64,000 bases of DNA from an uncultured Actinomycetota bacterium (GTDB lineage Bacteria; Actinomycetota; Thermoleophilia; RBG-16-64-13). Position 1 is the first letter of the stretch. Each line of letters opens with the position of its first letter. A program made the translations under genes and the position numbers. The notes beneath the pieces were generated by a model that was not told the origin of the DNA, searched no databases, and saw only the letters and a list, made by a program, of their open reading frames with translations. Shown here one piece after another: positions 15,260 through 28,414 of this stretch. The DNA is taken from the NCBI GenBank assembly GCA_963843455.1, contig CAWJKE010000009.1, forward strand, positions 3,691-67,690, in the 5' to 3' direction.

Positions 15260-16495
15260 TCATGGTTGGCTTGAAGTATGACCGGACCGCATGGCAGCCG
15301 GACCGCGTTCCCGGAGGAAGAGAGAAGCTACGGCGCCGGCGCCGAAAACAGCCGCGGACAGCGCATAGGACGGTGCCAAAGACGAGAAGATGTCTTCGAG
15401 GGCGCCGCCGACGTACGGCCCCAGCATCTGTCCCATGCCGACAAAGACGGTGACAAACCCGAGGGAGGCCGCGGCTAAACGGGCGCCGAAGTGGTCGCCG
15501 CACGCGGCTCCGAAGAGGGCCGGGACGCTCAGGGCGCAGATGCCGAACACAGCGGATGCAATCGCCAGCGCCGCGAGGTTGTGCCAGAGTGCAAAGACCA
15601 GAGCAACGGCCGCCTGAACGGCGAAGACGGCGGCGAGCGCCCGGCCTCTCCCTACGCTGTCCGAGAGCCGCCCCCACAAGACTCCGGAGACGCACCCTGT
15701 CACGCCGACCACCAGGAAGAGGTTCCCGGCAGTCTCGCTGCTGTACCCCAAGTCGACGGTCAGTCGCTTCTGGAAGAACGTGAAGAAGAGGAGGAAGGCG
15801 AAGCCGTAGAGGAAGTACAGGAGCCCCAGGAGCCAGGCGCGGCGCGAGCGGACGATGCTGCGCATGTCCGACCATTTCAGCTTCGCGATGACCGTGGCCC
15901 GGTCGGCGTAGGGCCGGTCGCGCTGGACGATGAAGGCGACCGCGGCGATCACCAAAGTGACGGCGGCGAAGAAGTACCAGGCGGCCCGCCACCCGTCGTC
16001 GCCCCCCGCTTCGATGATCCTCGGGACTATCGGTCCCACGACGAGAAGGGCGAACGAGGAACCGGCGGGGACTATGCCGGAGGCCGTCCCCAATCTCCTG
16101 GACTCGAACCAGGCGGCCATCAGCGCCAGAGAGGGGGCCAGGACCATCGCGTTCCCCATGCCGGTGACGAAACGCCCGGCCGAAGCCACGGCCAGACCGT
16201 CGGCAACCCCGGTGAGCAACATCCCCGCGGCGGTGATGATCAGCCCCAGGCCGGCGATGAGCCGAGGACCGAACCGGGAGGCCAGGATTCCTCCGATCAG
16301 GGCCATTATCGTGTAGCCGGCCTGGTTCCAGGAGGCCAGCGAACCGGCTTCGGCGCTCGTCAGCCCGAGGGCCTCCTGCATCGACGGCAGCACCGCGCTG
16401 TATCCAAAGCGTCCGAAGCCGATGGCCGCGAAGACCGAGACAAAGGCCATGCCCGCGACCACCCACCGATAACGGGAATCACGGGTCAGCCGCAT
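15260..16495 (-). CDS. MFS transporter (YbfB/YjiJ-like)
   Basis: 12 TM pattern, GFGRFGYSAVLPSM, GRLSDSVGR loop motif. Confidence 0.85.
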   Translation of the reverse strand: MRLTRDSRYRWVVAGMAFVSVFAAIGFGRFGYSAVLPSMQEALGLTSAEAGSLASWNQAGYTIMALIGGILASRFGPRLIAGLGLIITAAGMLLTGVADGLAVASAGRFVTGMGNAMVLAPSLALMAAWFESRRLGTASGIVPAGSSFALLVVGPIVPRIIEAGGDDGWRAAWYFFAAVTLVIAAVAFIVQRDRPYADRATVIAKLKWSDMRSIVRSRRAWLLGLLYFLYGFAFLLFFTFFQKRLTVDLGYSSETAGNLFLVVGVTGCVSGVLWGRLSDSVGRGRALAAVFAVQAAVALVFALWHNLAALAIASAVFGICALSVPALFGAACGDHFGARLAAASLGFVTVFVGMGQMLGPYVGGALEDIFSSLAPSYALSAAVFGAGAVASLFLRERGPAAMRSGHTSSQP

Positions 16496-16511
16496 GGGGT
16501 CGCCCAGGTGG

Positions 16512-17783
16512 TCAGCGCACGCCTCGCCGCTTGGGAAGTTCGGGGAGCGCGACTTCCGAATCTCCGTCGGACTCCGCCGAGCCTCGAGGGAGGAGCAGCG
16601 CGGCGCCGGCGGCTGCCACGAAGACTGCGCCAGAGAAGAAGTACGAGGGCGCCAGCGATGAGAAGGCGTCGTTCATCGCTCCGCCGATCAGCGGGCCGAT
16701 GGCTTGTCCGGCACCCACAAGGATAGTGATGAGCCCCAAAGAGGCGGAAGCGCGCTTGGGCCCGAACCGTTCGGCGCAGGCGACGCCCATGAGGCCTGGG
16801 AACGCAAGCCCCGTCGAACCGAAAAGGACTGCCGAGAGCGCCAGCACGGGTAGGCGGATTCCGGTCCCGAACAGGAAGCCGCCGATACCGGCGAGGAACA
16901 GGGTGAGGGCGAGAGTGCGCTCCCGGCCAAAACGGTCCGATGCCGATCCCCAGATCATCCCGCCGGCCAGGCCGGCGATCCCTACGAGCATGAAGAGGTA
17001 GCCGGCGGTCTGGGTGCTGTATCCCAGGTCTGTCGTAAGGCGCTTCTGGAAGAAGGTGAAGTAGAGCAGGAACGCGACGCCGTAGAGCAGGTAGACGGCG
17101 CCCAAGTGCCAGGCGTATCCGGAACGGATGACGCCTCCCAGGTGAAAGGAGGGTGGGCTGAGCTGGGCCCGGATGGCCGGAGGTGCCCACTTGTCGATGA
17201 CTATCTCGTCGCTCTCGACGATGGGCTTTGCCGGCCGGTCGCGTTGGATGATCGCGCTGAACGCGGCGAGCAAGATCGTGACTCCGGCGAAGAAGAACCA
17301 GGCGAGCCGCCATCCCTCGGCTCCGCCCGCGTGCAGGATGGGCGGCACCGCCAGGCCGACAACGACCAGAGCGAGCGACGAACCGGTCGGTACGACGGCC
17401 GAAGCAAGGCCCAGGCGATGGGTCTTGAACCACGCGGCCATGAGGCTGATGGACGGGACCAGTACCAGCCCGTTCCCCATCCCTGTCAGCAGCCGCGCGG
17501 CGGACGCTCCCGCGAGTGTGTTCGACAGGCCCGTGATGAGCATCCCCGCCGCGGTGACCACTACGCCCAGCGTGATCACTCTACGTGGTCCCCACCGGGA
17601 AGCAAGCACTCCGCCCACGGCCGACATGACGGTGTAGCCGACCAGGTTCCAGGATGCCAACGATCCTGCCGCCGCACTGCTGATGTTCAGGCCTTTCTGC
17701 ATGGAGGGCAGCACGGCGCTATAGCCGAAGCGGCCGAATCCCAGGGCTCCGAAAACACCCATGAACGCCATGCCGAGGACCAC
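16512..17783 (-). CDS. MFS transporter (YbfB/YjiJ-like), paralog of the adjacent gene
   Basis: GFGRFGYSAVLPSMQ, GSASDRFGR; start codon uncertain. Confidence 0.85.
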   Translation of the reverse strand: MVLGMAFMGVFGALGFGRFGYSAVLPSMQKGLNISSAAAGSLASWNLVGYTVMSAVGGVLASRWGPRRVITLGVVVTAAGMLITGLSNTLAGASAARLLTGMGNGLVLVPSISLMAAWFKTHRLGLASAVVPTGSSLALVVVGLAVPPILHAGGAEGWRLAWFFFAGVTILLAAFSAIIQRDRPAKPIVESDEIVIDKWAPPAIRAQLSPPSFHLGGVIRSGYAWHLGAVYLLYGVAFLLYFTFFQKRLTTDLGYSTQTAGYLFMLVGIAGLAGGMIWGSASDRFGRERTLALTLFLAGIGGFLFGTGIRLPVLALSAVLFGSTGLAFPGLMGVACAERFGPKRASASLGLITILVGAGQAIGPLIGGAMNDAFSSLAPSYFFSGAVFVAAAGAALLLPRGSAESDGDSEVALPELPKRRGVR

Positions 17784-17833
17784 CCACCGATAAGCGGGAC
17801 GCTGTGAGCGAGACGGCTGTACCGCGCGGCCTC

Positions 17834-18598
17834 TCAGATGTTCATGCCGCCGTCCGCCATGAAGACGCTCCCGGTAGAGAAACTGCTCGCGTCGGAGGCC
17901 AGGAACAGCACCATCCGGGCCACCTCCGACGCTCGGCCGTGCCTGCCGAGAGGGATGATTCCGTTGAGGAATTCCGTCCCATTCTGGCCGACGATCTCGG
18001 TGAGCCGCTCCTCTATCTGAGTCTGGAACTCGTTCTCAATGGGGCCGGGAGCAAAGACGTTCACCCGTATATTCCGCGGCGCCGCTTCTTTTGCGACTAC
18101 CCGCGCCAGCCCGATGAGCGCGTGCTTCGACGTCGCGTAGGCGCAGACGCCCGGGTCGGCCCTGGTGCCCATGATGCTCGAGGTGATGATGATGCTGCCG
18201 CCGTCGTTCATGAGCGGCAGTCCATACTTGCATGCGAGGAAAGAGCCCCTGATATTCGTCGCGATGACAGCGTCGAACACGTCCTCCGGGTACTCGGTGA
18301 CCGGCTTGATGACGCCGGAGATGCCGGCATGGCTGAAGATGACGTCGATGTTGCCCCAGTTCGCGACCGCCCGGTCGAGATACTTGCGGGTTTCCGCTGC
18401 GTCGGCGACGTCGGCCGAGATGCTATCGAGCACATCTGCCCCGGCGTTCAGTGACGCGGCCGCCCAGGCCAACTTCTCCGAGCTCCGACCAACAAGCAGC
18501 ACCCGCGCCCCCTCTTCCAGGAGCGCCTGCGCGGCCGCCAGGCCGATGCTGCCTCCGCCGCCGGTGACGACACAGACCTTTCCCTTCATGATGCCCAT
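17834..18598 (-). CDS. Short-chain dehydrogenase/reductase
   Basis: TGGGGSIG, YATSK, RVNVFAPG, FLASD; RBS GAAGGAGG before ATG 18598. Confidence 0.9.
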   Translation of the reverse strand: MGIMKGKVCVVTGGGGSIGLAAAQALLEEGARVLLVGRSSEKLAWAAASLNAGADVLDSISADVADAAETRKYLDRAVANWGNIDVIFSHAGISGVIKPVTEYPEDVFDAVIATNIRGSFLACKYGLPLMNDGGSIIITSSIMGTRADPGVCAYATSKHALIGLARVVAKEAAPRNIRVNVFAPGPIENEFQTQIEERLTEIVGQNGTEFLNGIIPLGRHGRASEVARMVLFLASDASSFSTGSVFMADGGMNI

Positions 18599-18726
18599 GC
18601 GTCCTCCTTCAGTTCCCGTACTTGCCCCCGGTCCTTCGCATGCGGCCATGATACAGCCCTTAACTTGCCGGAGACCCCTCAGAGAGCCGGCGCGGCAGCC
18701 GGGTGCGGCTGTGTTACATTCGACTG

Positions 18727-19323
18727 ATGAAGCCAAGACGTTGCGCCTGGGTGGGCACCGACCCCCTCTATGTCGCGTATCACGACGAGGAATGGGGGGT
18801 GCCGGTGCACGACGACCGGCTGCTCTTTGAATTCCTCGTGCTCGAAGGCGCTCAGGCGGGGCTGAGTTGGCTCACTATCCTCCGCAAACGGGAGGGCTAC
18901 CGACGTGCATTCGCGGGTTTCGACCCGGCCGTCGTCGCCGCCTTCGGCCCCGCGGATATCGAGCGTTTGCTCGCCGATGCCGGCATAGTCCGCAATCGTC
19001 TCAAGATAGGGTCGGCCGTCGCCAACGCCCAGGCCTTTCTGCAGGTGCAGGCGGAGTTCGGGAGTTTCGACGCCTACGTTTGGGGATTCGTGGATGGCTC
19101 GACTCTCCACAACGAGTGGCGCACCATGGCCGAGATCCCTGCGAAGACTGCCGAGGCCGAGCGCATGAGCAGTGACCTCAAAAAGCGGGGATTCCGGTTC
19201 GTCGGTCCCACCATCTGCTATGCGCACATGCAAGCCACCGGCATGGTGAACGATCATACCGTCGACTGCTTTCGATACCAGGAATTGAGGCCCGGCCACC
19301 TGCTTCAAGGAGGAGATCGATGA
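18727..19323 (+). CDS. tag: DNA-3-methyladenine glycosylase I
   Basis: [46 protein letters not shown]. Confidence 0.95.
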
Positions 19324-21731
19324 GCACCGCAGCCCCCTTCGACGGGCAAGCTCCGCTCGAAGAGCAAGCCCCACTTGATCCCCTCGAGCTCGAACGCATG
19401 AACGCGTACTGGCGGGCGGCAAACTACCTCTCTGTCGGTCAGATCTATCTCAAGGACAACCCGCTCCTGCGCCGGCCTCTCGGCAGAGAAGATATCAAGG
19501 CGCGGTTGCTTGGCCATTGGGGCACCTGCCCGGGCCTGAACCTCGTCTACGCGCACCTCAATAGGGTCATCAAAGCCCGCGATCTGGACGTGATCTACGT
19601 GTGCGGCCCGGGGCACGGGGGGCCGGCGATGGTGGCGAACGTGTATCTCGAAGGCACCTACAGCGAGTACTACAACCACATCTCGCGGAATGAAGTGGGC
19701 ATCCAACGCTTGTTCAAGCAATTCTCGTTCCCCGGCGGCATTCCCAGCCACGTCGCCCCCGAGACCCCGGGCTCCATCCACGAGGGGGGCGAGCTCGGCT
19801 ATTCGCTTGCGCATGCCTACGGGGCCGCCTTCGACAATCCCGATCTGATCGCCGTGTGCGTGATCGGTGATGGTGAAGCCGAGACCGGCGCTCTCGCGGC
19901 CGGCTGGCAGTCGAACAAGTTCCTCAACCCGGCCACCGATGGGGCGGTGCTGCCCATTCTCCACCTGAACGGGGCCAAGATCGCGGGTCCCACGGTCTTG
20001 TCGCGCATCAGCCGGGAAGAGTTGACCGCCTATCTACAAGGCTGCGGCCACACCCCCTACTTCGTCGAGGGGCAACACCCGGCGTCCGTGCACCAGCTCA
20101 TGGCCGCGACGCTCGACCATGTTCTGGACGAGATCGTGGAGCTCCAGCGGCGGGCGCGGGAAGCGGGGATCGTCGAGCGGCCCCGCTGGCCGATGATCGT
20201 CCTGGTCACCCCCAAAGGCTGGACAGGGCCCAAGACCGTCGACGGCAAGCCGGTGGAGGGCACCTTTCGCTCGCACCAGGTGCCCTTCTCCGACATGACC
20301 CCCGAGCACATCAAGTTGCTCGAAGAGTGGATGCGCAGCTACAAGCCGGAAGAGTTGTTCGACGAAGATGGGGCGCTGCGGCAGGAACTCGCCGCGCTCG
20401 CACCCGAAGGGAAGCGGCGGATGGGCGACAACCCGCACGCCAACGGCGGTCTGCTACTGCACGATCTCGAGCTGCCCGATTTCAGGGAGTTCGCCGTCGA
20501 GGTCGGCGCGCCTGGAACGACCAATGCCGAGTCCACCCGAATCATGGGCCAATTCCTCGCCGAGACGATGCGGCGCAACCTTGCCGCCAAGAACTTCCGC
20601 ATCTTCGGCCCCGACGAGACCGCCTCCAACCGTCTCGACGCGGTGCTCGACGTGACTCCCCGCACCTGGGAGGCGACCATACTGCCGGGCGACGATCGGC
20701 TATCGCCTTCGGGCCGGGTCATGGAGATCCTGAGCGAGCACACCATCGAGGGGTGGATCGAGGGATATCTCCTCACCGGGCGCCACGGTTTCTTCTCGTG
20801 CTACGAGGCGTTCATCCACATCATCTCGTCCATGTTCAACCAGCACGCCAAGTGGCTCGACGTCACCAGGGATATCCCCTGGCGGCGTCCCATCGCCTCG
20901 CTCAACTATCTGCTTACTTCCCACGTCTGGCGGCAGGACCACAATGGTTTCTCCCACCAGGACCCGGGCTTCATCGATCACGTACTGACCAAGAAGGCCG
21001 AGGTCACCCGAGTCTATCTGCCTCCCGACGCCAACACCCTGCTCGTGGTCACCGATACCTGTCTCCGAAGCCGGGGACTCACCAACGTCATCGTGGCCGG
21101 CAAGCAGCCGGAGCTGCAGTGGCTGGACATGACGTCCGCCATCCGGCACTGCGCGGCCGGCATCGGGATCTGGGAGTGGGCCGGCAACGACCAGGGGTGC
21201 GAGCCCGATGTGGTCATGGCCTGCGCGGGGGACGTGCCGACGATGGAGACGCTGGCCGCCGTCGATTTCCTGCGGAAGTACATACCAGGCCTGAGGATCC
21301 GGGTGGTCAACGTCGTGGATCTGATGACCCTGCAGCCTCATGAGGAGCATCCCAACGGGCTCACGAGCGGCGAGTTCGACTCGCTCTTCACTGCCGACAA
21401 GCCCATCATCTTCGCCTACCACGGCTATCCCTGGCTCATCCACCGCCTGACCTACCGGCGGACCGGTCACGACAACCTGCACGTGCGCGGCTACAAGGAG
21501 GAAGGGAGCACCACCACCCCGTTCGACATGACGGTGCGGAACGAGTTGGATAGGTTCAGCCTGGCCCGAGATGTCATCGACAGGGTGCCGGGGCTCGCGG
21601 AACGAGCGGCACACGTCAGGCAGATGCTCAGGGATGCGCACGTGGACCACGCCCAGTACATCCGGGAGACTGGGGACGATATGCCTGTGGTCAAGGAATG
21701 GAAATGGGGCTACTACGTGCAGTTGACATGA
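19320..21731 (+). CDS. xfp: Phosphoketolase (XFP/XPK)
   Basis: [52 protein letters not shown]. Confidence 0.95.
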
Positions 21732-22558
21732 CGCAAGTGATTCTTCTCGGCATCGTCGGCCTGATAGGCGGTACCTTCGGATCCATGGTCGGATTGGGCG
21801 GGGGAGTCTTCATCATCCCGGCGCTCACCCTGTTCATGGGCGTACCGATCCACAGCGCCATATCGGCAAGCCTTGTCGCGGTAGTCGCTACGTCGACCAC
21901 CGCCGCCGCGGCCTACGTGCGCGAGGATCTCTCCAACATGCGTCTGGGGATGACCTTGGAGACGATGACCGTCTCGGGGGCGCTCGTCGGCGGCTTCGTG
22001 GGGGCCAGTCTCAGTAAGGGGGCGCTGTCGGCCGTGTTCGGCGCCGTGATGATCGCGGTGTCGGTCTACATGGTGGCGGGCAAGCGGGCGGTCCGGGCCC
22101 CCGTGGCGCACGACGAGGATCTCGGGCTGCTGGGCCATTCCTACTTCGACCGCAACCTGCAGACGCTCGTCAGCTACAGGGTCCGCAGGCTACCGGTCGG
22201 CATGGGCGTCTCGGGCGTGGCTGGAGCCGTCTCGGGCCTGCTCGGCGTGGGAGGGGGCTTCCTCAAGGTCCCCGTCATGGTGCTTGCCATGGGAATCCCG
22301 GTCAGGGCGGCGGTCTCTACAAGCAGTTTCATGATCGGCGTCACCGCCTGCGCGAGCTCCGTGGTCTTTTTCGCCCGGGGCCTGGTCGACCCGACGGTGG
22401 CGGTACCGGTGGTGTTCGGCGTGACCCTGGGGGCCTACGTCGGGTCGAAGCTCACTCTTCGCGTGAGGAGTTCGGTACTCACCGTGTTGCTCGCCATCGT
22501 GCTGTTCGCCCTTTCGGTCCAGATGATCCTCAGTGCCGTGGGCATCAGCGTACGGTGA
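21728..22558 (+). CDS. Sulfite exporter TauE/SafE family membrane protein
   Basis: [14 protein letters not shown] and [14 protein letters not shown] repeats; ATGA overlap with xfp. Confidence 0.88.
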
Positions 22559-22941
22559 GCCCCTTCGAAGCCACCCCGCACGTCCGCGACGAGCACCGCG
22601 AGGAGATGCGGCTCAACAGTGTCATCTCCAGGGTGCTGGTGGTCGGCCTCCTGGCAGCCATCGCCCTACTCGTCGTCGGCGTGATCCTGACGATCGCCCG
22701 GCCGGGAGTGCCCATCCCTCACTCCACCTCGATCAAAGACATACCGGCGCAACTCGCCGCGCTCGAACCCGGGGGTTTCTACCAGTTGGGTCTTCTCGTG
22801 CTTCTGGCGACGCCGTTCGCCCGCGTGGTGGCGCTGGGCGTCGCTTATACCCAGCGCCGTCAGTGGCTCTTCGCCGGCATCAGCTTCGTCGTGATGGCCA
22901 TGTTGATACTCGGGGCGGTTCTGGGACTCAGCCTGGGCTAG
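22555..22941 (+). CDS. DUF1634-like membrane protein
   Basis: 3 TM, GLLVLLATPFARV; usual partner of TauE genes. Confidence 0.75.
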   Translation: MSPFEATPHVRDEHREEMRLNSVISRVLVVGLLAAIALLVVGVILTIARPGVPIPHSTSIKDIPAQLAALEPGGFYQLGLLVLLATPFARVVALGVAYTQRRQWLFAGISFVVMAMLILGAVLGLSLG

Positions 22942-24019: not shown

Positions 24020-25639
24020 TCAGTCTCCGTCGGGTCCCGGGCTGCGGACGCTCGCCTGAGCGCCGCGGCGGCCGAGGACCCACTGCTCCAGCGCCTCTGC
24101 CACGCCGTCGCGGAGGTTCGAAGAGGTGATCACGTCGGCCGCCGCCTTGGCGGCAGGACCGGCGTTGCCCATGGCGACGCCCACCCCGGCCCACTGCAGC
24201 AGGACGGCATCGCTGTCGTGGTCTCCGATCGCCATCACCTGCTCGGCCGGGATCTGCATCTGGCGGGCAAATTGCTGTGCCATAGCCGCTTTGGAGGCGT
24301 CGATGGACGTGAAGTCGAGGATCCCGGGAACGTTCTCGTAGATGTTCGCCCTTCCGGAAAACGTTCGCTGCAGGACAAGCCCGGCCGCCGCCCCGTTGTC
24401 GTCGCCTAGGTCGCGGAGGTCGATGAAGACCTTGTCGATGGGTTCTCCCGCCTTGATGACCTCGTCGACGCGGCCTACCTCGTGCGGTTCCGACACCTCG
24501 TAGTTGAGTATCCCGTCCCGCACGAGATCGGCCAGCCGGTCGGTGAACCACTCGTCGTCGCTCTCCACGTTGGCGACGGCACCCAGGTCGCGGCCTGCAG
24601 CCACTATTTCGGAGGCGAGGGCGGCAGAGAGCGAGACGCGCGACGACCCGGCACCGGCCTGGACGTTCCATAGGAGGGCTCCGTCGCAGGCGATCATCGG
24701 GGTCATGAGTCCGAGTTGCTGGTGGAAGGGACGCATGGCTCGGGGCGGCCGGGACGAGACGAGGACCACTTCTACTCCGCCCTCGCGCACGTTGGCGATC
24801 GTCCGCTTGACCCGCTCGGAGATATGCCTGGGTCCCGATACGAGCGTACCGTGCAGGTCGATGAACACCAGCCGCATCATCCGGCCCGTTCCCGCCAGTT
24901 GCGCCAGCCCACGGGCGACGTAGTCCAGATGGTGGCGCATCGCTTGGCGCGCCTTCTGCTCGTCCCCCGCCCTGATGGCTCTCCGGATGGCCTCGTGCTG
25001 CTGATGCAGGGCCACACCTCCGCCGGGCTCCGCGTAGTAGGCGCTGAGGATGGCCTCCATGTGATCGTGGAGCAGAGCCGCGGGCTCCTGGATGACCCGC
25101 TCAAAAAGCGGATTGTGGGTCGCCTGAGCGATCGAGGCGTGAAAAGCAGCGTCGTCGTCGGGGGACAATTGCCTGCCCGGACCGGCGGCGAGGATGGATA
25201 GGCGATGCAGGTCCTCCACGGTGGCCCGGCGGGCGGCCAGGCCGGCGGCCTCGATCTCCACCGCGCTTCGTATCTCCATCAGCTCAGCCATCCGCTCGGC
25301 GCCGGCGCCGAGAAGAGAAGCCAGCGGAGCGGAAAAGCTGGGCGAGGGTATGTTGGCGACGTTGGTACCTTGAGCGCCCCGCCCCACCACGAGAAGCCCT
25401 TGCGCTTTTAGCTCGCGCAGCGCCTCTCGTACCGCCGGACGGCCGACGCCCAGCCGGCTGGCCAGATCGCGCTCGGAGGGTATTCGGCCGCCCGCCCTGT
25501 ACTCGCCCGAGTGGATGAGCTGGCGAAGTTGCTCGGCGACCTGATCGGTGATAGTGCTGGGGACGACCGGTTTCAGCAGCGGTTCCCGCTGCTTGTCGCC
25601 GGCATGCTCGTCCGAGGAAGCGCCCGAAGTCATAGGCAT
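24020..25639 (-). CDS. FadR/GntR transcriptional regulator fused to a Cof-type HAD-IIB domain
   Basis: HTH PSERDLASRLGVGRPAVREAL + FCD domain, then MMRLVFIDLHGTL...AIGDHDSD..GVAMGNA in one frame. Confidence 0.8.
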   Translation of the reverse strand: MPMTSGASSDEHAGDKQREPLLKPVVPSTITDQVAEQLRQLIHSGEYRAGGRIPSERDLASRLGVGRPAVREALRELKAQGLLVVGRGAQGTNVANIPSPSFSAPLASLLGAGAERMAELMEIRSAVEIEAAGLAARRATVEDLHRLSILAAGPGRQLSPDDDAAFHASIAQATHNPLFERVIQEPAALLHDHMEAILSAYYAEPGGGVALHQQHEAIRRAIRAGDEQKARQAMRHHLDYVARGLAQLAGTGRMMRLVFIDLHGTLVSGPRHISERVKRTIANVREGGVEVVLVSSRPPRAMRPFHQQLGLMTPMIACDGALLWNVQAGAGSSRVSLSAALASEIVAAGRDLGAVANVESDDEWFTDRLADLVRDGILNYEVSEPHEVGRVDEVIKAGEPIDKVFIDLRDLGDDNGAAAGLVLQRTFSGRANIYENVPGILDFTSIDASKAAMAQQFARQMQIPAEQVMAIGDHDSDAVLLQWAGVGVAMGNAGPAAKAAADVITSSNLRDGVAEALEQWVLGRRGAQASVRSPGPDGD

Positions 25640-25706
25640 GATGGTAACACCATCATGCTCGAGAGCGCAAACTCACGGAGAGAAAAGGCGACTGACGGGG
25701 AGGCCG

Positions 25707-26510
25707 CTAGCTTCCGGCGCGGTCCGCCTCCGCCAGTGCTGGGTCGGCCTCTGTTGCGGCCAGAACCGCCAGTTCCCGCCGCCGGTCCTTCCGCTTGGCG
25801 GCCAGTCTGGCCAATTGGATGCCGAACTCGTAGAGGACGATCAGCGGACCGAGCATGAGCATCATGCTGACCGGGTCCTGGCTTGGCGTGAGGATCATGG
25901 CGATGACCGCCATCACCAGGACGGCGTACTTGCGCCACTTGCGCATACTGACGTCGCTGATCAATCCGGCCCAGGCGAGAAGCATCATGATAAGCGGCAG
26001 CTCAAAGACGACGCCGAAGGCGAGCAGGAACATGGAGATGAAGCTGAAGTAGCGCTCGGCTTGGAAGAGCTGGTTGAAGAACTGGTCGCCGTAGCCGACC
26101 AAGAACCGAAGGCCGACAGGTAACACGATCAAGTAGCCGAAGCTGATCCCGGCCAAGAAAAGGGCGGTCGTGAAGAGGACATAGGGGACGACACTGCGCT
26201 TTTCGTTCTCGTACAGAGCGGGCATGATGAAGGCCCAGAACTGATAGAGAAGGAAGGGCAGAGCGATGACGAGGCCGGCGTAGATCGAGACCTTGAGTAT
26301 CTGCATGAAGGCCTCGGTCACGCCGAAGGTGGCCAGATTCTCGGTGAAACCGGCCATACGAAGAGGCCGCATGAGCAGGGCAAGCACGTAGTCTTTCGCG
26401 ACGAAGGCCCCGACCACGCACACCAAGACCACGATCGCGCTGTACGTGAGCCGCTTGCGTAGCTCGCCAAGATGCCCCATGAGGGGCATCGTCTTCGGAT
26501 CTTTGCTCAC
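25707..26510 (-). CDS. tatC: Twin-arginine translocase subunit TatC
   Basis: MPLMGHLGELRKRL, FLLYQFWAFIMPALY, FELP, LTPSQDP, LYE. Confidence 0.95.
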   Translation of the reverse strand: MSKDPKTMPLMGHLGELRKRLTYSAIVVLVCVVGAFVAKDYVLALLMRPLRMAGFTENLATFGVTEAFMQILKVSIYAGLVIALPFLLYQFWAFIMPALYENEKRSVVPYVLFTTALFLAGISFGYLIVLPVGLRFLVGYGDQFFNQLFQAERYFSFISMFLLAFGVVFELPLIMMLLAWAGLISDVSMRKWRKYAVLVMAVIAMILTPSQDPVSMMLMLGPLIVLYEFGIQLARLAAKRKDRRRELAVLAATEADPALAEADRAGS

Positions 26511-26777: not shown

Positions 26778-27146
26778 TTGGTCAGTCCGACTATCGACCT
26801 GGTCATCCAGTTCGGTCTCATGTTCGCAATTGGCGCCGCGATGGCGGTCGCGTTTGTGTTCATATCCCACTTGCTTTCTCCCAAAAGCAGGAATCCCAAC
26901 AAGGGCCGAGCTTACGAATGCGGCGTAGAACCCAAAGCCGATGCCCGGGCGCCCCTCAACGTCCATTACTATCTGGTGGCCGTGCTCTTCGTGCTGTTCG
27001 ACCTCGAAGCCGTCTTCATCTACCCCTGGGCGGTGTCGCTGCGCTCTCTCGGGACGGGCGCCCTGGTGGAGATGTTCGTGTTCATAGCCATTCTCCTCGT
27101 CGGCTACTTCTACGCGTGGAAGAAGGGCGTGTTCGAATGGGAATAA
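26778..27146 (+). CDS. nuoA: Complex I subunit A
   Basis: [30 protein letters not shown]; TTG after AAGGAG. Confidence 0.92.
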
Positions 27147-28414
27147 GCGAAGGGCGTCCTTTCCTCACAGTGCGGGACGGCCTTCTGCAGCCGGCGCTCG
27201 AAGAGGTCATACGGCCGGGCGGGCGACTCCTGCTGCCGGGGCAGGAGCCGGCGGACGAGCCGCTCGGCGGCGGTCCCGTCCTGTTCCCGGGCGGCATAGC
27301 CATGCCGGTGCAGGTAGAGCGCGTCCTCGGCTTCGGCCGTAGCTTCTCCTTTTGGCCTCTACTGTTCGGGCTCGCCTGCTGCGCCATCGAGATGATGGCT
27401 CTGGGCGGCTCGCGCTTCGACATGTCTCGGTTCGGGATGGAGGCCATGCGCGCCTCGCCGCGCCAAGCCGATGGCATGATCGTCGCCGGCTGGTGCAGCA
27501 CCAAGATGGCTCCCCGGGTGGTGCGCCTCTACGAGCAGATCCCCGACCCCAAGTGGGTGCTGGCCATGGGATCCTGCGCCATCTCGGGGAACATCTGGGA
27601 CACCTACAGCGTGGTACAGGGGGTCGACAGCCTCATCCCGGTGGACGTCTACGTGCCCGGCTGCCCGCCCCGCCCCGAAGCTCTATGGCAGGGGCTGGAG
27701 ATGATCCGGGAGCGCATCAAGCAAAGCCGGCACGCCTACGACGGGCTGCGGCGCATCCCCGCCCGAGATCTCTTGGCGGCGAGCGCCGGCGAAGGACTCT
27801 GCCCGCCGGACGCCTATTCGGCGCCCACATCGATCGCCGGGCCCGGGCGTGGAGGAGACGGTATGACACCGGGCGAGGACGGACCTCAGGTGCTGTCTGA
27901 GTCCCAGGCGTTGCCTGCATCCCTGTCGGCCGCGGCAGACGCACTGGGCTCGACATTCGGGGAGCGGATCGTCGAGCGTACCGAGTTCCGGGGCGATCTG
28001 ACGCTCGGCGTCGACCCCGCGGCCTGGCTTGACGTGCTCACCTTCTGCCGGGACGATCCCTCCGCGGCCTTCGACCAACTGGACTGCCTGCTGGGCGACC
28101 ATCTGCCCGAACGGGTCGACGCACCCTTCGCCGTCGTGGCCCATCTGCTCTCGCACACCCACGGCCACCGTCTGCGGGTGAAGACCGCGCTCACCGAGGG
28201 ACAGGCGCTGCCGACGGTCACGGGGTTGTGGCCGTCCGCGGACTTCGACGAGCGGGAGACCTGGGAGATGTTCGGTATCGTCTTTGCAGGTCATCCCAAT
28301 CTGCGCCGGCTTCTGACCACCGAAGACTTCGAAGGCTTCCCGTTGCGCAAGGACTTCCCCCTCAAGGGGACCGTGGGCGGGCGCGTCCGCACCGACCTGC
28401 GGGGCAAGATCTGA
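27137..28414 (+). CDS. nuoBC: Complex I subunits B and C in a single ORF (NuoC region begins at ATG 27863)
   Basis: [31 protein letters not shown]; then [26 protein letters not shown]. Confidence 0.9.

What the first reader, a model, noticed from the sequence alone, without database searches (positions are those of the whole stretch)
24020..25639. FadR regulator fused to a degenerate HAD phosphatase: possible sugar-phosphate-sensing one-component system
One ORF joins HTH + FCD to a full Cof/HAD-IIB domain. The HAD deviates at several catalytic positions: DxD is DLH (His codon at 24851-24853), TGR is SSR, and GDxxND is GDHDSD. Several independent losses fit a ligand-binding pseudo-enzyme rather than a sequencing slip. 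Phosphoketolase lies nearby, so phosphosugar sensing is plausible. Caveat: the junction has ATGA, so one indel could fake the fusion.
Basis: partly seen in the sequence, partly recalled or inferred. Interest (0 to 1): 0.7.

Follow-up and report, generated by a model that had tools for sequence, protein, structure and literature searches.

The report
Repressor fused to a decaying phosphatase
This is a real gene, conserved in one group of uncultured soil actinobacteria, that joins a PdhR/FadR-type DNA-binding repressor to a sugar-phosphatase-like domain whose catalytic residues have been lost again and again while the rest of the domain stays under strong selection, so it looks like an enzyme caught turning into a sensor.

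Summary
One ORF (24020-25633/25639, minus strand) encodes GntR wHTH + FCD + a complete Cof-type HAD-IIB domain, with motif I reading D-L-H. The fusion is not an artefact. At least 120 protein clusters and 31 species-level genomes, all Thermoleophilia/Gaiellales MAGs, carry it full-length. Independent assemblies cross the junction without indels.

- Only Asp+2→His is a catalytic loss in this protein. SSR and GDHDSD are family-wide and keep the essential Ser and both Asps.
- The stronger evidence is at family level. Only 59/120 members keep DxD, with about 23 switches on the tree, against 53/53 in stand-alone Cof relatives.
- Despite this, the HAD core stays under the same purifying selection (dN/dS about 0.12) whether or not DxD is intact. 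The Ser/Lys/Asp/Asp phosphate- and Mg-binding residues persist.
- The FCD metal tetrad is intact.
- An invariant PdhR-box-like palindrome (ATGGTGTTACCATC) overlaps the gene's own putative promoter in all 32 genomes.

Best reading: an autoregulated FadR-type repressor whose HAD domain serves as a non-catalytic phospho-ligand-binding module, analogous to NrtR.

The ligand and the regulon are unknown. No evidence links the gene to the nearby phosphoketolase.

The parts
24020..25633 (-). Coding sequence of the three-domain regulator (537 aa plus stop). An in-frame ATG six bases upstream at 25639 gives the 539-aa ORF used for the residue numbering here.
   Evidence: ORF list. A 100% identical 537-aa database protein, P0001. 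The conserved ATG position in 32 aligned upstream regions.
25376..25549 (-). GntR-type winged helix-turn-helix DNA-binding domain (residues 31-88).
   Evidence: PF00392, 70 bits against a cutoff of 27. It is the least variable part of the protein (mean column entropy 0.54).
24923..25285 (-). FCD effector/oligomerisation domain (residues 119-239), with the D163/H167/H215/H237 tetrad intact.
   Evidence: PF07729, 77 bits. Best PDB match is PdhR 9jpj, E 2e-20. The tetrad is invariant in the family and present in 52-57 of 57 stand-alone FadR-type relatives.
24872..24922 (-). Short conserved linker (residues 240-256, YVARGLAQLAGTGRMMR).
   Evidence: G244, L245, A246, G250 and R256 are invariant in 47 sequences. 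No indels in independent contigs.
24089..24868 (-). Cof-type HAD-IIB domain (residues 258-517). The core is 258-336 plus 442-517, and the C2B cap is about 337-441 (24317-24631).
   Evidence: PF08282, 152 bits, full-length; TIGR00099, 137.3 against 137. YidA 1rkq, E 4e-23, aligned over residues 255-527.
24851..24859 (-). HAD motif I, D261-L262-H263. The nucleophile Asp is kept and the Asp+2 general acid/base is replaced by His.
   Evidence: The His codon is unchanged in contigs of four runs. Both positions are Asp in 53/53 stand-alone Cof relatives.
24755..24757 (-). HAD motif II, Ser295 (phosphate-binding Ser/Thr), within VLVSSRP.
   Evidence: Invariant in 120/120 family members. Stand-alone relatives have T in 33 and S in 22.
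24290..24292 (-). HAD motif III, Lys450.
   Evidence: Invariant in 120/120 and 55/55.
24209..24223 (-). HAD motif IV, D473-H-D-S-D477 (GDHDSD). Both Mg-site Asps are kept. The Asn of the Cof consensus GDxxND is Ser family-wide.
   Evidence: D473 in 115/120 and D477 in 118/120; S in 100/120 against N in 54/55 stand-alone relatives.
25638..25656 (.). Perfect 19-bp palindrome ATGATGGT-AAC-ACCATCAT. The core invariant across genomes is 25640-25653 (ATGGTGTTACCATC in gene orientation). Putative autoregulatory operator of PdhR-box type (GGTnnnACC).
   Evidence: It is the only TGGTnnnACCA in 64 kb. It sits in the same place in 31/31 related loci, with one mismatch each in L005, L023 and L026. PdhR box AATTGGTnnnACCAATT from PMC7660256.
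25641..25670 (-). Putative promoter of the regulator. The -35-like TTGC is at 25667-25670, followed by an 18-nt spacer and the -10-like TACCAT at 25641-25646 inside the operator. The conserved ATG lies 8 nt downstream (leaderless-like).
   Evidence: Position-specific conservation in 32 genomes. This is an inference only, because the strict sigma-70 consensus scan found no promoter and no RNA data exist.
25707..26510 (-). tatC, the conserved upstream neighbour on the same strand (context, probably not functionally part of the system).
   Evidence: PF00902, 227 bits. Present upstream in 28/31 loci.

Best explanation
The gene encodes a lineage-restricted (Thermoleophilia/Gaiellales) one-component transcription factor. 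It is built from a PdhR/LldR-like FadR-subfamily repressor (wHTH + FCD) with a Cof-type HAD-IIB phosphatase domain attached to its C-terminus.

As a dimer it most likely binds the invariant palindrome ATGGT-GTT-ACCAT. That site overlaps the -10 region of its own promoter, so the protein would repress its own synthesis. Further targets lie elsewhere in the genome.

The HAD domain descends from an active phosphatase: the deepest family member still has DxD and GDxxND. In this family, however, it is kept for something other than turnover. Most probably it binds a phosphorylated metabolite plus Mg2+ in the old active site and passes that occupancy through the short rigid linker to the FCD/HTH module. 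That would give a second input alongside the FCD's own carboxylate/metal pocket.

In the window's copy the nucleophile Asp261, the motif II Ser, the motif III Lys and both motif IV Asps remain, but Asp+2 is His. I therefore predict that it binds ligand and hydrolyses it very slowly or not at all.

Shown: the architecture, its conservation, the recurrent loss of catalytic residues under maintained purifying selection, and the conserved operator-like site.
Inferred: DNA binding to that site, repression, ligand binding by the HAD domain, and allosteric coupling.
Unknown: the identity of either ligand, and the regulon.
For: - Architecture and homology.
- The fusion is conserved in 120 clusters and 31 species genomes, and it is the only such architecture among the top hits of a 1.84-billion-protein library. 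Other two-stretch hits are FadR-FadR or Cof-Cof proteins.
- Motif I states in the family: DxD 59, NxD 18, DxG 14, DxN 10, DxE 5, GxD 4, ExD 3, DxH 2, GxG 2, DxA/GxE/TxD 1 each.
- On an NJ tree there are 9 changes at the nucleophile, 21 at Asp+2 (78th percentile of HAD columns) and about 23 switches between DxD and non-DxD. One NxD clade holds 15 clusters, so that loss is old and stable.
- Control: 53/53 much more divergent stand-alone Cof relatives keep both Asps.
- There is no decay after loss. The identity ratio of HAD core to HTH+FCD is about 1.0 in every motif I class, and Ser/Lys/Asp/Asp are conserved in all of them.
- dN/dS for the HAD core is 0.127 (DxD pairs), 0.123 (non-DxD pairs) and 0.082 (NxD clade), against about 0.11 for HTH+FCD.
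- The Asp+2 backbone carbonyl, not its side chain, chelates Mg2+, so metal and phosphate binding can survive the substitution (PMC10541634).
- The operator is invariant in 32 genomes, is of PdhR-box type and overlaps the -10-like hexamer.
- Precedent: the NrtR family has a Nudix-derived effector domain with mixed intact and degenerate signatures, and binds ADPR without hydrolysing it (PMC2330246).
Against: - Half of the family still has a complete catalytic set, so phosphatase activity may matter in those members.
- No ligand is identified, and there is no experimental or transcript evidence.
- No target other than the gene's own promoter was found in 672 kb of related sequence.
- The promoter does not reach E. 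coli-type consensus thresholds.
- Seven family members have Gly at the nucleophile position. That removes a Mg ligand and would weaken phospho-ligand binding.
- The cap, which normally holds the leaving group, evolves about twice as fast as the core (dN/dS 0.22-0.28).
- The full-length AF2 model was too poor (pLDDT 62) to test domain coupling.
Confidence: 0.58

Rival explanations
1. Bifunctional 'trigger enzyme'. The phosphatase activity is the point: the HAD domain makes (or destroys) the FCD effector in cis, for example by releasing a hydroxy- or sugar-acid from its phosphate ester, so that the repressor reports on a phosphorylated precursor. The many degenerate alleles would then be mildly deleterious or locally redundant variants.
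For: DxD is still the commonest state (59/120), and every replacement is one nucleotide step from Asp. The deepest member, P0121, has fully canonical motifs. The FCD pocket is intact and closest to the hydroxy-/oxo-acid sensors LldR, NanR, PdhR and GlcC. Some NrtR members with intact signatures are thought to do both jobs.
Against: A clade of 15 clusters has lived with NxD long enough for synonymous sites to saturate, at dN/dS 0.08 in the HAD core. Non-DxD members show no compensating change or relaxation in FCD or HTH. In the window's own subclade only 7 of 25 clusters keep DxD. That fraction is too low for a function under selection.
Confidence: 0.2
2. Structural module only. The HAD domain is kept as an oligomerisation or scaffold domain (for example to build tetramers or to contact a partner protein), and its old active site is irrelevant.
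For: Conservation of the domain does not depend on the catalytic residues. An extra conserved TACCTA element next to the palindrome might reflect contacts by more than one dimer. A tetrameric GntR regulator has been described (title of PMC7797058, listed; the paper was not read).
Against: A pure scaffold gives no reason to keep motif II Ser (120/120), motif III Lys (120/120), both motif IV Asps (115 and 118 of 120) and the GTL of motif I nearly invariant. These residues form the phosphate/Mg site.
Confidence: 0.12
3. Receiver-like phospho-switch. In the window's subclade the nucleophile Asp is phosphorylated, for example by acetyl phosphate, which needs no general acid. Loss of Asp+2 stabilises the aspartyl phosphate, so the HAD domain would act like a response-regulator receiver domain.
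For: In clusters P0001-P0025 the nucleophile is Asp in 25/25, while Asp+2 is Asp in only 7/25. The Mg site is retained. A phosphoketolase, which makes acetyl phosphate, lies nearby, and acetate-kinase-like ORFs sit next to it in related loci. That HAD and CheY-like folds share aspartyl-phosphate chemistry, and that P-type ATPases carry Thr at +2, is general knowledge and was not tested here.
Against: Across the family, 29/120 lack the nucleophile (N, G, E, T) without any sign of relaxed selection. Retention of Asp0 is equally well explained by its role as a Mg ligand. There is no regulatory link to phosphoketolase.
Confidence: 0.07
4. Artefact. Two adjacent genes (FadR-type regulator and Cof phosphatase) are joined by a sequencing or assembly indel at the ATGA junction.
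For: ATGATG is present at the junction. Frame changes are seen in 6/31 related loci.
Against: The single frame is conserved in 120 clusters from many sources. There are no indels in four independent assemblies. The linker is conserved at the protein level. The frame changes in related loci fall at scattered positions, and the MAGs concerned mostly have complex I genes that are broken in the same way. The only apparent stand-alone HAD (P0123) starts inside the last FCD helix and is a truncated gene call.
Confidence: 0.01

Closest known systems
PdhR / LldR / GlcC / NanR (FadR subfamily of GntR regulators, FCD domain)
   Same: The N-terminal wHTH plus all-helical FCD aligns over residues 22-248. 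The D/H/H/H tetrad is intact. The operator has the GGTnnnACC core and 3-nt spacing of the PdhR box. It sits at the gene's own promoter, as in pdhR.
   Different: It is not an orthologue of any of them (101-128 bits against equivalog cutoffs of 301-330). It carries an extra 280-residue HAD domain that none of them has. The ligand is unknown. No pdh, lld, glc or nan genes lie next to it.
Cof-type HAD-IIB phosphatases (E. coli YidA sugar phosphatase, PDB 1rkq; YbhA, Cof, YigL)
   Same: Full-length match to the core plus C2B cap. Motifs II, III and IV and the GTL of motif I are conserved.
   Different: It is fused to a transcription factor. Asp+2 is His here, and motif I is degenerate in half of the family, against 0/53 in stand-alone relatives. 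The Asn of GDxxND is Ser. It scores below every equivalog cutoff (YidA model, 114 against 273).
NrtR (Nudix-related transcriptional regulators)
   Same: It works alike. A hydrolase domain fused to a wHTH serves as the effector-binding domain. The family mixes members with intact and perturbed catalytic signatures. The proposed history is an active fusion followed by loss of hydrolysis (PMC2330246).
   Different: The fold (Nudix against HAD), the domain order and the DNA-binding domain are unrelated. NrtR has one sensor domain, whereas this protein keeps a complete FCD sensor as well.
MocR/GabR subfamily of GntR regulators
   Same: A GntR wHTH is fused to an enzyme-derived domain (aminotransferase fold) that binds a cofactor or ligand instead of performing normal catalysis. 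This is general knowledge; only weak HTH-level hits were seen here.
   Different: In MocR the enzyme-like domain replaces the effector domain. Here it is added after a full FadR-type effector domain. The enzyme superfamily is different.

Membership tests
GntR family, FadR subfamily (FCD type) | N-terminal GntR-type winged helix-turn-helix | tested here: met
   PF00392, 70 bits against a cutoff of 27, residues 31-88.
GntR family, FadR subfamily (FCD type) | All-helical FCD effector domain following the HTH | tested here: met
   PF07729, 77.2 bits against a cutoff of 24.3, residues 119-239. Aligned to PdhR 9jpj, NanR 6on4 and LldR-type 2di3.
GntR family, FadR subfamily (FCD type) | Conserved Asp/His/His/His metal-ligand tetrad of FCD domains | tested here: met
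   D163, H167, H215 and H237 are invariant in the family and present in 52, 57, 56 and 56 of 57 stand-alone relatives. That these residues bind metal is general knowledge of FCD structures.
GntR family, FadR subfamily (FCD type) | Palindromic operator of the GT-n-AC type, bound by a dimer | tested here: inconclusive
   A conserved ATGGTGTTACCAT at the gene's own promoter fits the PdhR core GGTnnnACC. Binding itself cannot be tested here.
PdhR / LldR / GlcC / NanR orthologue | Score above the NCBIfam equivalog or subfamily cutoff | tested here: not met
   LldR 128.1 against 311, NanR 114.9 against 260, PdhR 101.2 against 330, GlcC 100.4 against 301.
HAD superfamily, subfamily IIB, Cof type | Rossmannoid core with a C2B cap; match to the Hydrolase_3, TIGR01484 and TIGR00099 models | tested here: met
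   PF08282, 152 bits, positions 1-255 of 255. TIGR01484, 65.3 against 41.8. TIGR00099, 137.3 against 137, which is marginal.
HAD superfamily, subfamily IIB, Cof type | Motif I DxD (nucleophile Asp and Asp+2 general acid/base) | tested here: not met
   The window protein has D261-L-H263. Only 59/120 of the family have DxD, against 53/53 stand-alone relatives.
HAD superfamily, subfamily IIB, Cof type | Motif II Ser/Thr, motif III Lys, motif IV acidic pair (GDxxxD) | tested here: met
   S295 in 120/120, K450 in 120/120, D473 in 115/120, D477 in 118/120. The Asn of GDxxND is replaced by Ser.
HAD superfamily, subfamily IIB, Cof type | Mg-dependent phosphomonoesterase activity | not testable with these tools
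   Needs an enzyme assay. I predict it is strongly impaired in this copy because Asp+2 is missing.
YidA-type sugar phosphatase (equivalog) | Score above the NF007806 cutoff | tested here: not met
   114.4 bits against a cutoff of 273.
Enzyme-derived one-component regulators (NrtR-like logic; functional analogy, not homology) | The catalytic signature is dispensable while the domain remains under purifying selection | tested here: met
   About 23 switches of motif I state. HAD-core dN/dS is 0.12 with or without DxD. The other active-site residues are conserved.
Enzyme-derived one-component regulators (NrtR-like logic; functional analogy, not homology) | Substrate-like ligand modulates DNA binding | not testable with these tools
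   Needs EMSA or ITC with candidate ligands.

The most novel reading that the evidence does not exclude
In the window's subclade the HAD domain has become a receiver-like aspartyl-phosphate switch. Asp261 (kept in 25/25 clusters) would be phosphorylated by a small high-energy donor such as the acetyl phosphate made by the neighbouring phosphoketolase. Loss of the Asp+2 general acid/base (18/25 clusters) would lock in the phospho-form. If so, a HAD domain, rather than a CheY-like receiver, would couple phosphoryl-donor levels to a GntR repressor. A softer version is that the family is a natural time-series of an enzyme becoming a sensor, with active, trapped and dead states all extant.
Probability: 0.08. 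Interest if true: 0.85.

Novelty: new variant of a known kind. Interest (0 to 1): 0.6.

Why it matters
Transcription factors that recruit an enzyme fold as a sensor (NrtR, MocR, BirA-like proteins) are a recurring route to new regulation. In most of them the transition is long finished. Here the same family holds catalytically complete, general-acid-less and nucleophile-less versions side by side, with more than 20 independent losses and no relaxation of selection on the domain.

That makes it a tractable natural series for asking what is selected when an enzyme becomes a sensor. It is also a case where a FadR-type regulator carries two potential ligand-binding domains.

In practical terms, these proteins are currently annotated either as 'Cof-type HAD-IIB hydrolase' or as 'PdhR repressor'. 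Both labels are misleading.

The limits are real. The organisms are uncultured, and the ligand and the regulon are unknown.

Tried and rejected
(1) Frameshift or fusion artefact: rejected.

(2) Frame changes in 6/31 related loci as evidence of pseudogenisation: rejected. The nuoD/H/L/M genes are broken in the same way in four of those six MAGs and in several others.

(3) Independent GntR-FCD-HAD fusions elsewhere: the more distant two-stretch hits of 450-714 aa that I scanned are tandem FadR-FadR or Cof-Cof proteins.

(4) A second operator, ATGGTCTCACCAT, found in 5 loci: it lies inside the Tag glycosylase coding sequence and is absent from the window's own copy, so I rejected it.

(5) An operator in the tatC-nuoA divergent region (idea: PdhR-like control of respiration): none in 29 regions.

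(6) Relaxed operator searches in the window and in 672 kb of loci: only the self-sites exceed chance.

(7) Phosphoketolase as a target: there is no site, and the gene is convergent and three genes away.

(8) Full-length AlphaFold model from 47 family sequences: mean pLDDT 62, with the C-terminal 70 residues below 50. I did not use it for fold search.

(9) RNA-seq evidence for the transcription start: no runs available.

(10) Strict sigma-70 promoter scan: no hit. The promoter call therefore rests on conservation only.

(11) Literature search for this architecture: nothing found. That is not proof of absence.
Full report
**1. Observation**

The 539-aa ORF at 24020-25639 on the minus strand is real.
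- Pfam places a GntR wHTH at residues 31-88, an FCD domain at 119-239 and a complete Hydrolase_3 (Cof/HAD-IIB) domain at 258-517.
- NCBIfam agrees. Cof TIGR00099 scores 137.3 bits against a cutoff of 137, and HAD-SF-IIB scores 65.3 against 41.8. The best matches to the regulator half are LldR, NanR, PdhR and GlcC, all far below their equivalog cutoffs.
- The best solved relatives are E. coli YidA (1rkq, E 4e-23, residues 255-527) and PdhR (9jpj, E 2e-20, residues 29-244).
Motif II is VLVSSRP, motif III is K450 and motif IV is GDHDSD.

**2. The fusion is genuine**

- A search of 5.8 billion proteins returned at least 120 clusters of about 540 aa at 65-89% identity. All have the same three domains. 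They come from soil, wetland and sediment metagenomes and from MAGs labelled Thermoleophilia.
- Thirty-one GTDB species genomes carry the gene. All are uncultured Actinomycetota, Thermoleophilia or Gaiellales.
- In a 1.84-billion-protein representative library the family collapses to two full-length representatives, P0100 (68%) and P0121 (51%). The more distant two-stretch hits I scanned are tandem FadR-FadR or Cof-Cof proteins. The fusion therefore looks like a single-origin, lineage-restricted event.
- Contigs from four independent runs cross the FCD-HAD junction with no indel and with the His codon unchanged. Of the 40 variant sites listed, 38 are third-codon positions of the single frame, on both sides of the junction.
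- The only apparent stand-alone HAD (P0123) starts inside the last FCD helix, so it is a truncated gene call.
- Frame changes in six related loci fall at scattered positions. In four of those six MAGs complex I genes are broken in the same way, so these are assembly indels.

**3. What is and is not degenerate in this copy**

- Among 55 stand-alone Cof relatives, motif II is Thr in 33 and Ser in 22. The Ser of 'SSR' is therefore normal.
- Both Asps of motif IV and the motif III Lys are present.
- SSR and GD[H/D]DSD are family-wide: S295 in 120/120, D473 in 115/120, D477 in 118/120.
- The one family-wide departure from the Cof consensus is Ser for the Asn of GDxxND (S in 100/120, against N in 54/55).
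- The only loss of a catalytic side chain in this protein is Asp+2→His.
[quoted passage not shown] The Asp+2 side chain points at the substrate phosphate. The His replacement should therefore spare metal binding but remove the general acid/base. That last role is general knowledge of HAD phosphatases.

**4. The family-level pattern is the main result**

- Only 59 of 120 clusters have DxD. The others are NxD 18, DxG 14, DxN 10, DxE 5, GxD 4, ExD 3, DxH 2, GxG 2, and DxA, GxE and TxD one each. Apart from the single Thr, every replacement is one nucleotide step from Asp.
- On an NJ tree of 117 full-length sequences the nucleophile changes at least 9 times and Asp+2 at least 21 times (78th percentile of HAD columns). 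There are about 23 switches between DxD and non-DxD.
- DxN arose about 7 times, DxG 6 and DxE 4. One NxD clade holds 15 clusters, so that loss is old and stable.
- In the window's own subclade (P0001-P0025) the nucleophile is Asp in 25/25, but Asp+2 is Asp in only 7/25.
- Control: in 53/53 aligned stand-alone Cof representatives, which are far more divergent (about 35% identity to the query), both Asps are invariant.
- The deepest fusion member, P0121 (49% identity), has DLD, a motif II Ser and the canonical GDHDND. The ancestor was therefore catalytically competent.

**5. Loss of the catalytic residues is not followed by decay**

- The identity ratio of HAD core to HTH+FCD is 0.99-1.04 in the DxD, NxD, Dx[GNEHA] and [GET]x groups. 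Ser, Lys, Asp and Asp stay conserved in all of them.
- Nei-Gojobori dN/dS for the HAD core is 0.127 for DxD pairs, 0.123 for non-DxD pairs and 0.082 within the NxD clade. HTH+FCD is about 0.11 and the cap 0.22-0.28.
- The linker (residues 240-256) is short and conserved, with G244, L245, A246, G250 and R256 invariant.
- The domain is therefore selected for something that needs the phosphate/Mg site but not turnover.

**6. The regulator half looks fully functional**

- The HTH is the least variable region.
- The FCD tetrad D163/H167/H215/H237 is invariant in the family and present in 52-57 of 57 stand-alone relatives.
- Directly upstream of the gene lies a perfect 19-bp palindrome, ATGATGGT-AAC-ACCATCAT (25638-25656). 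It holds the only TGGTnnnACCA in the 64-kb window.
- In gene orientation the 14-mer ATGGTGTTACCATC occupies the same place in all 31 related loci. L005, L023 and L026 each have a single mismatch.
- It has the GGTnnnACC core and spacing of the PdhR box, AATTGGTnnnACCAATT (PMC7660256).
- It contains a TAnnnT-type hexamer (TACCAT). A conserved TTGC sits 18 nt upstream, and in about two thirds of the genomes the start ATG follows 8 nt downstream. That fits a leaderless, autorepressed transcript.
- This promoter reading is an inference. A strict sigma-70 scan finds nothing and no RNA data are available.
- The aligned ATG is at 25633, so the true protein is probably 537 aa.

**7. Context and regulon**

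- Synteny is strong. tatC lies upstream on the same strand (28/31). The nuo operon diverges beyond it (29-31/31). Downstream and convergent are TauE (28), DUF1634 (24), a Na/Ca exchanger (16) and phosphoketolase (22). All of these genomes belong to one lineage, so the synteny says little about function.
- No operator-like site occurs in the tatC-nuoA region, near the phosphoketolase gene, or anywhere else above chance in 672 kb. There are 32 self-sites plus 8 others, against 8.8 expected by chance.
- A second palindrome in five loci lies inside the Tag coding sequence, and I rejected it.
- The regulon beyond autoregulation is unknown, and the proposed phosphoketolase/sugar-phosphate link has no support beyond proximity.

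**8. Interpretation**

- Best explanation (about 0.58): an autoregulated FadR-type repressor whose Cof-derived domain now serves as a non-catalytic phospho-ligand/Mg-binding input. It adds to the FCD pocket rather than replacing it.
- The closest functional precedent is NrtR. There a Nudix domain with a mixed intact/degenerate signature binds ADP-ribose without hydrolysing it, and an 'active fusion, later loss of hydrolysis' history was proposed (PMC2330246).
- Rivals:
  - A true trigger enzyme whose activity feeds or removes the FCD effector (0.2). The old NxD clade and the 28% DxD in the window's subclade argue against it.
  - A purely structural or oligomerisation module (0.12). The invariant phosphate/Mg residues argue against it.
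  - A receiver-like aspartyl-phosphate switch (0.07). The pattern 'nucleophile 25/25, Asp+2 7/25' in the window's subclade favours it. The 29/120 family members without a nucleophile argue against it.
  - An artefact (about 0.01).

**9. Novelty**

I found no paper describing a GntR-FCD-HAD regulator. Databases label these proteins either 'Cof-type HAD-IIB hydrolase' or 'PdhR repressor'. The logic of an enzyme fold recruited as a sensor is known, so I rate this a new variant of a known kind. What is unusual is the addition of a second sensor-like domain to an already complete FadR-type regulator, and the many recent, independent catalytic losses under maintained selection.

Noticed in passing
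window 25631-25638 (minus strand TGCCTATG); L001-L031 just downstream of the operator: A second conserved element, TACCTA, follows the palindrome by one base in nearly all genomes. It is conserved even in genomes where no ATG follows it. It resembles a third 'TTACC' half-site in direct repeat with the right arm. It could be a contact for an extra subunit or the transcription-start region.
   Followed up: partly
window 26918-28414 (+): One ORF carries both the NuoB (Oxidored_q6) and NuoC (Complex1_30kDa) domains, i.e. an apparent NuoB-NuoC fusion at the head of the complex I operon. It is conserved in 31/31 related loci by tblastn.
   Followed up: no
window 18664-21728 (+); L007, L011, L015, L016, L030 at about 15-20 kb: The phosphoketolase gene (XFP_N/XFP/XFP_C) directly follows, and overlaps in stop-to-stop ORF terms, a 3-methyladenine glycosylase (Tag) gene. 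In several related loci, ORFs that I take to be acetate-kinase-like from their N-terminal sequence alone (…TQTIMCINSGSSSLKF…; no family search run) sit between the two genes. That would suggest a phosphoketolase/acetate kinase pair.
   Followed up: partly
L007:19494, L011:19888, L015:16827, L016:21102, L030:16679: A full ATGGT-nnn-ACCAT palindrome recurs inside the Tag glycosylase coding sequence of five genomes but not in the window. It is probably a coding coincidence, but it is the only recurrent non-self match to the operator.
   Followed up: yes
window 15263-18035 (-): Two tandem MFS transporters of the YbfB/MFS_4 type. They are present in only 8 of the 31 related loci.
   Followed up: no
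L004, L010, L011, L025, L027, L029, L031 (MAGs named MFD…): Many frame changes occur in essential complex I genes as well as in the regulator. These assemblies carry frequent indel errors, so apparent pseudogenes in them should not be trusted.
   Followed up: yes
window 21698-22941 (+): A TauE/SafE-family permease is followed by a DUF1634 protein, with overlapping stop and start. The pair is conserved downstream of the regulator in 24-28 of 31 loci, in convergent orientation.
   Followed up: no
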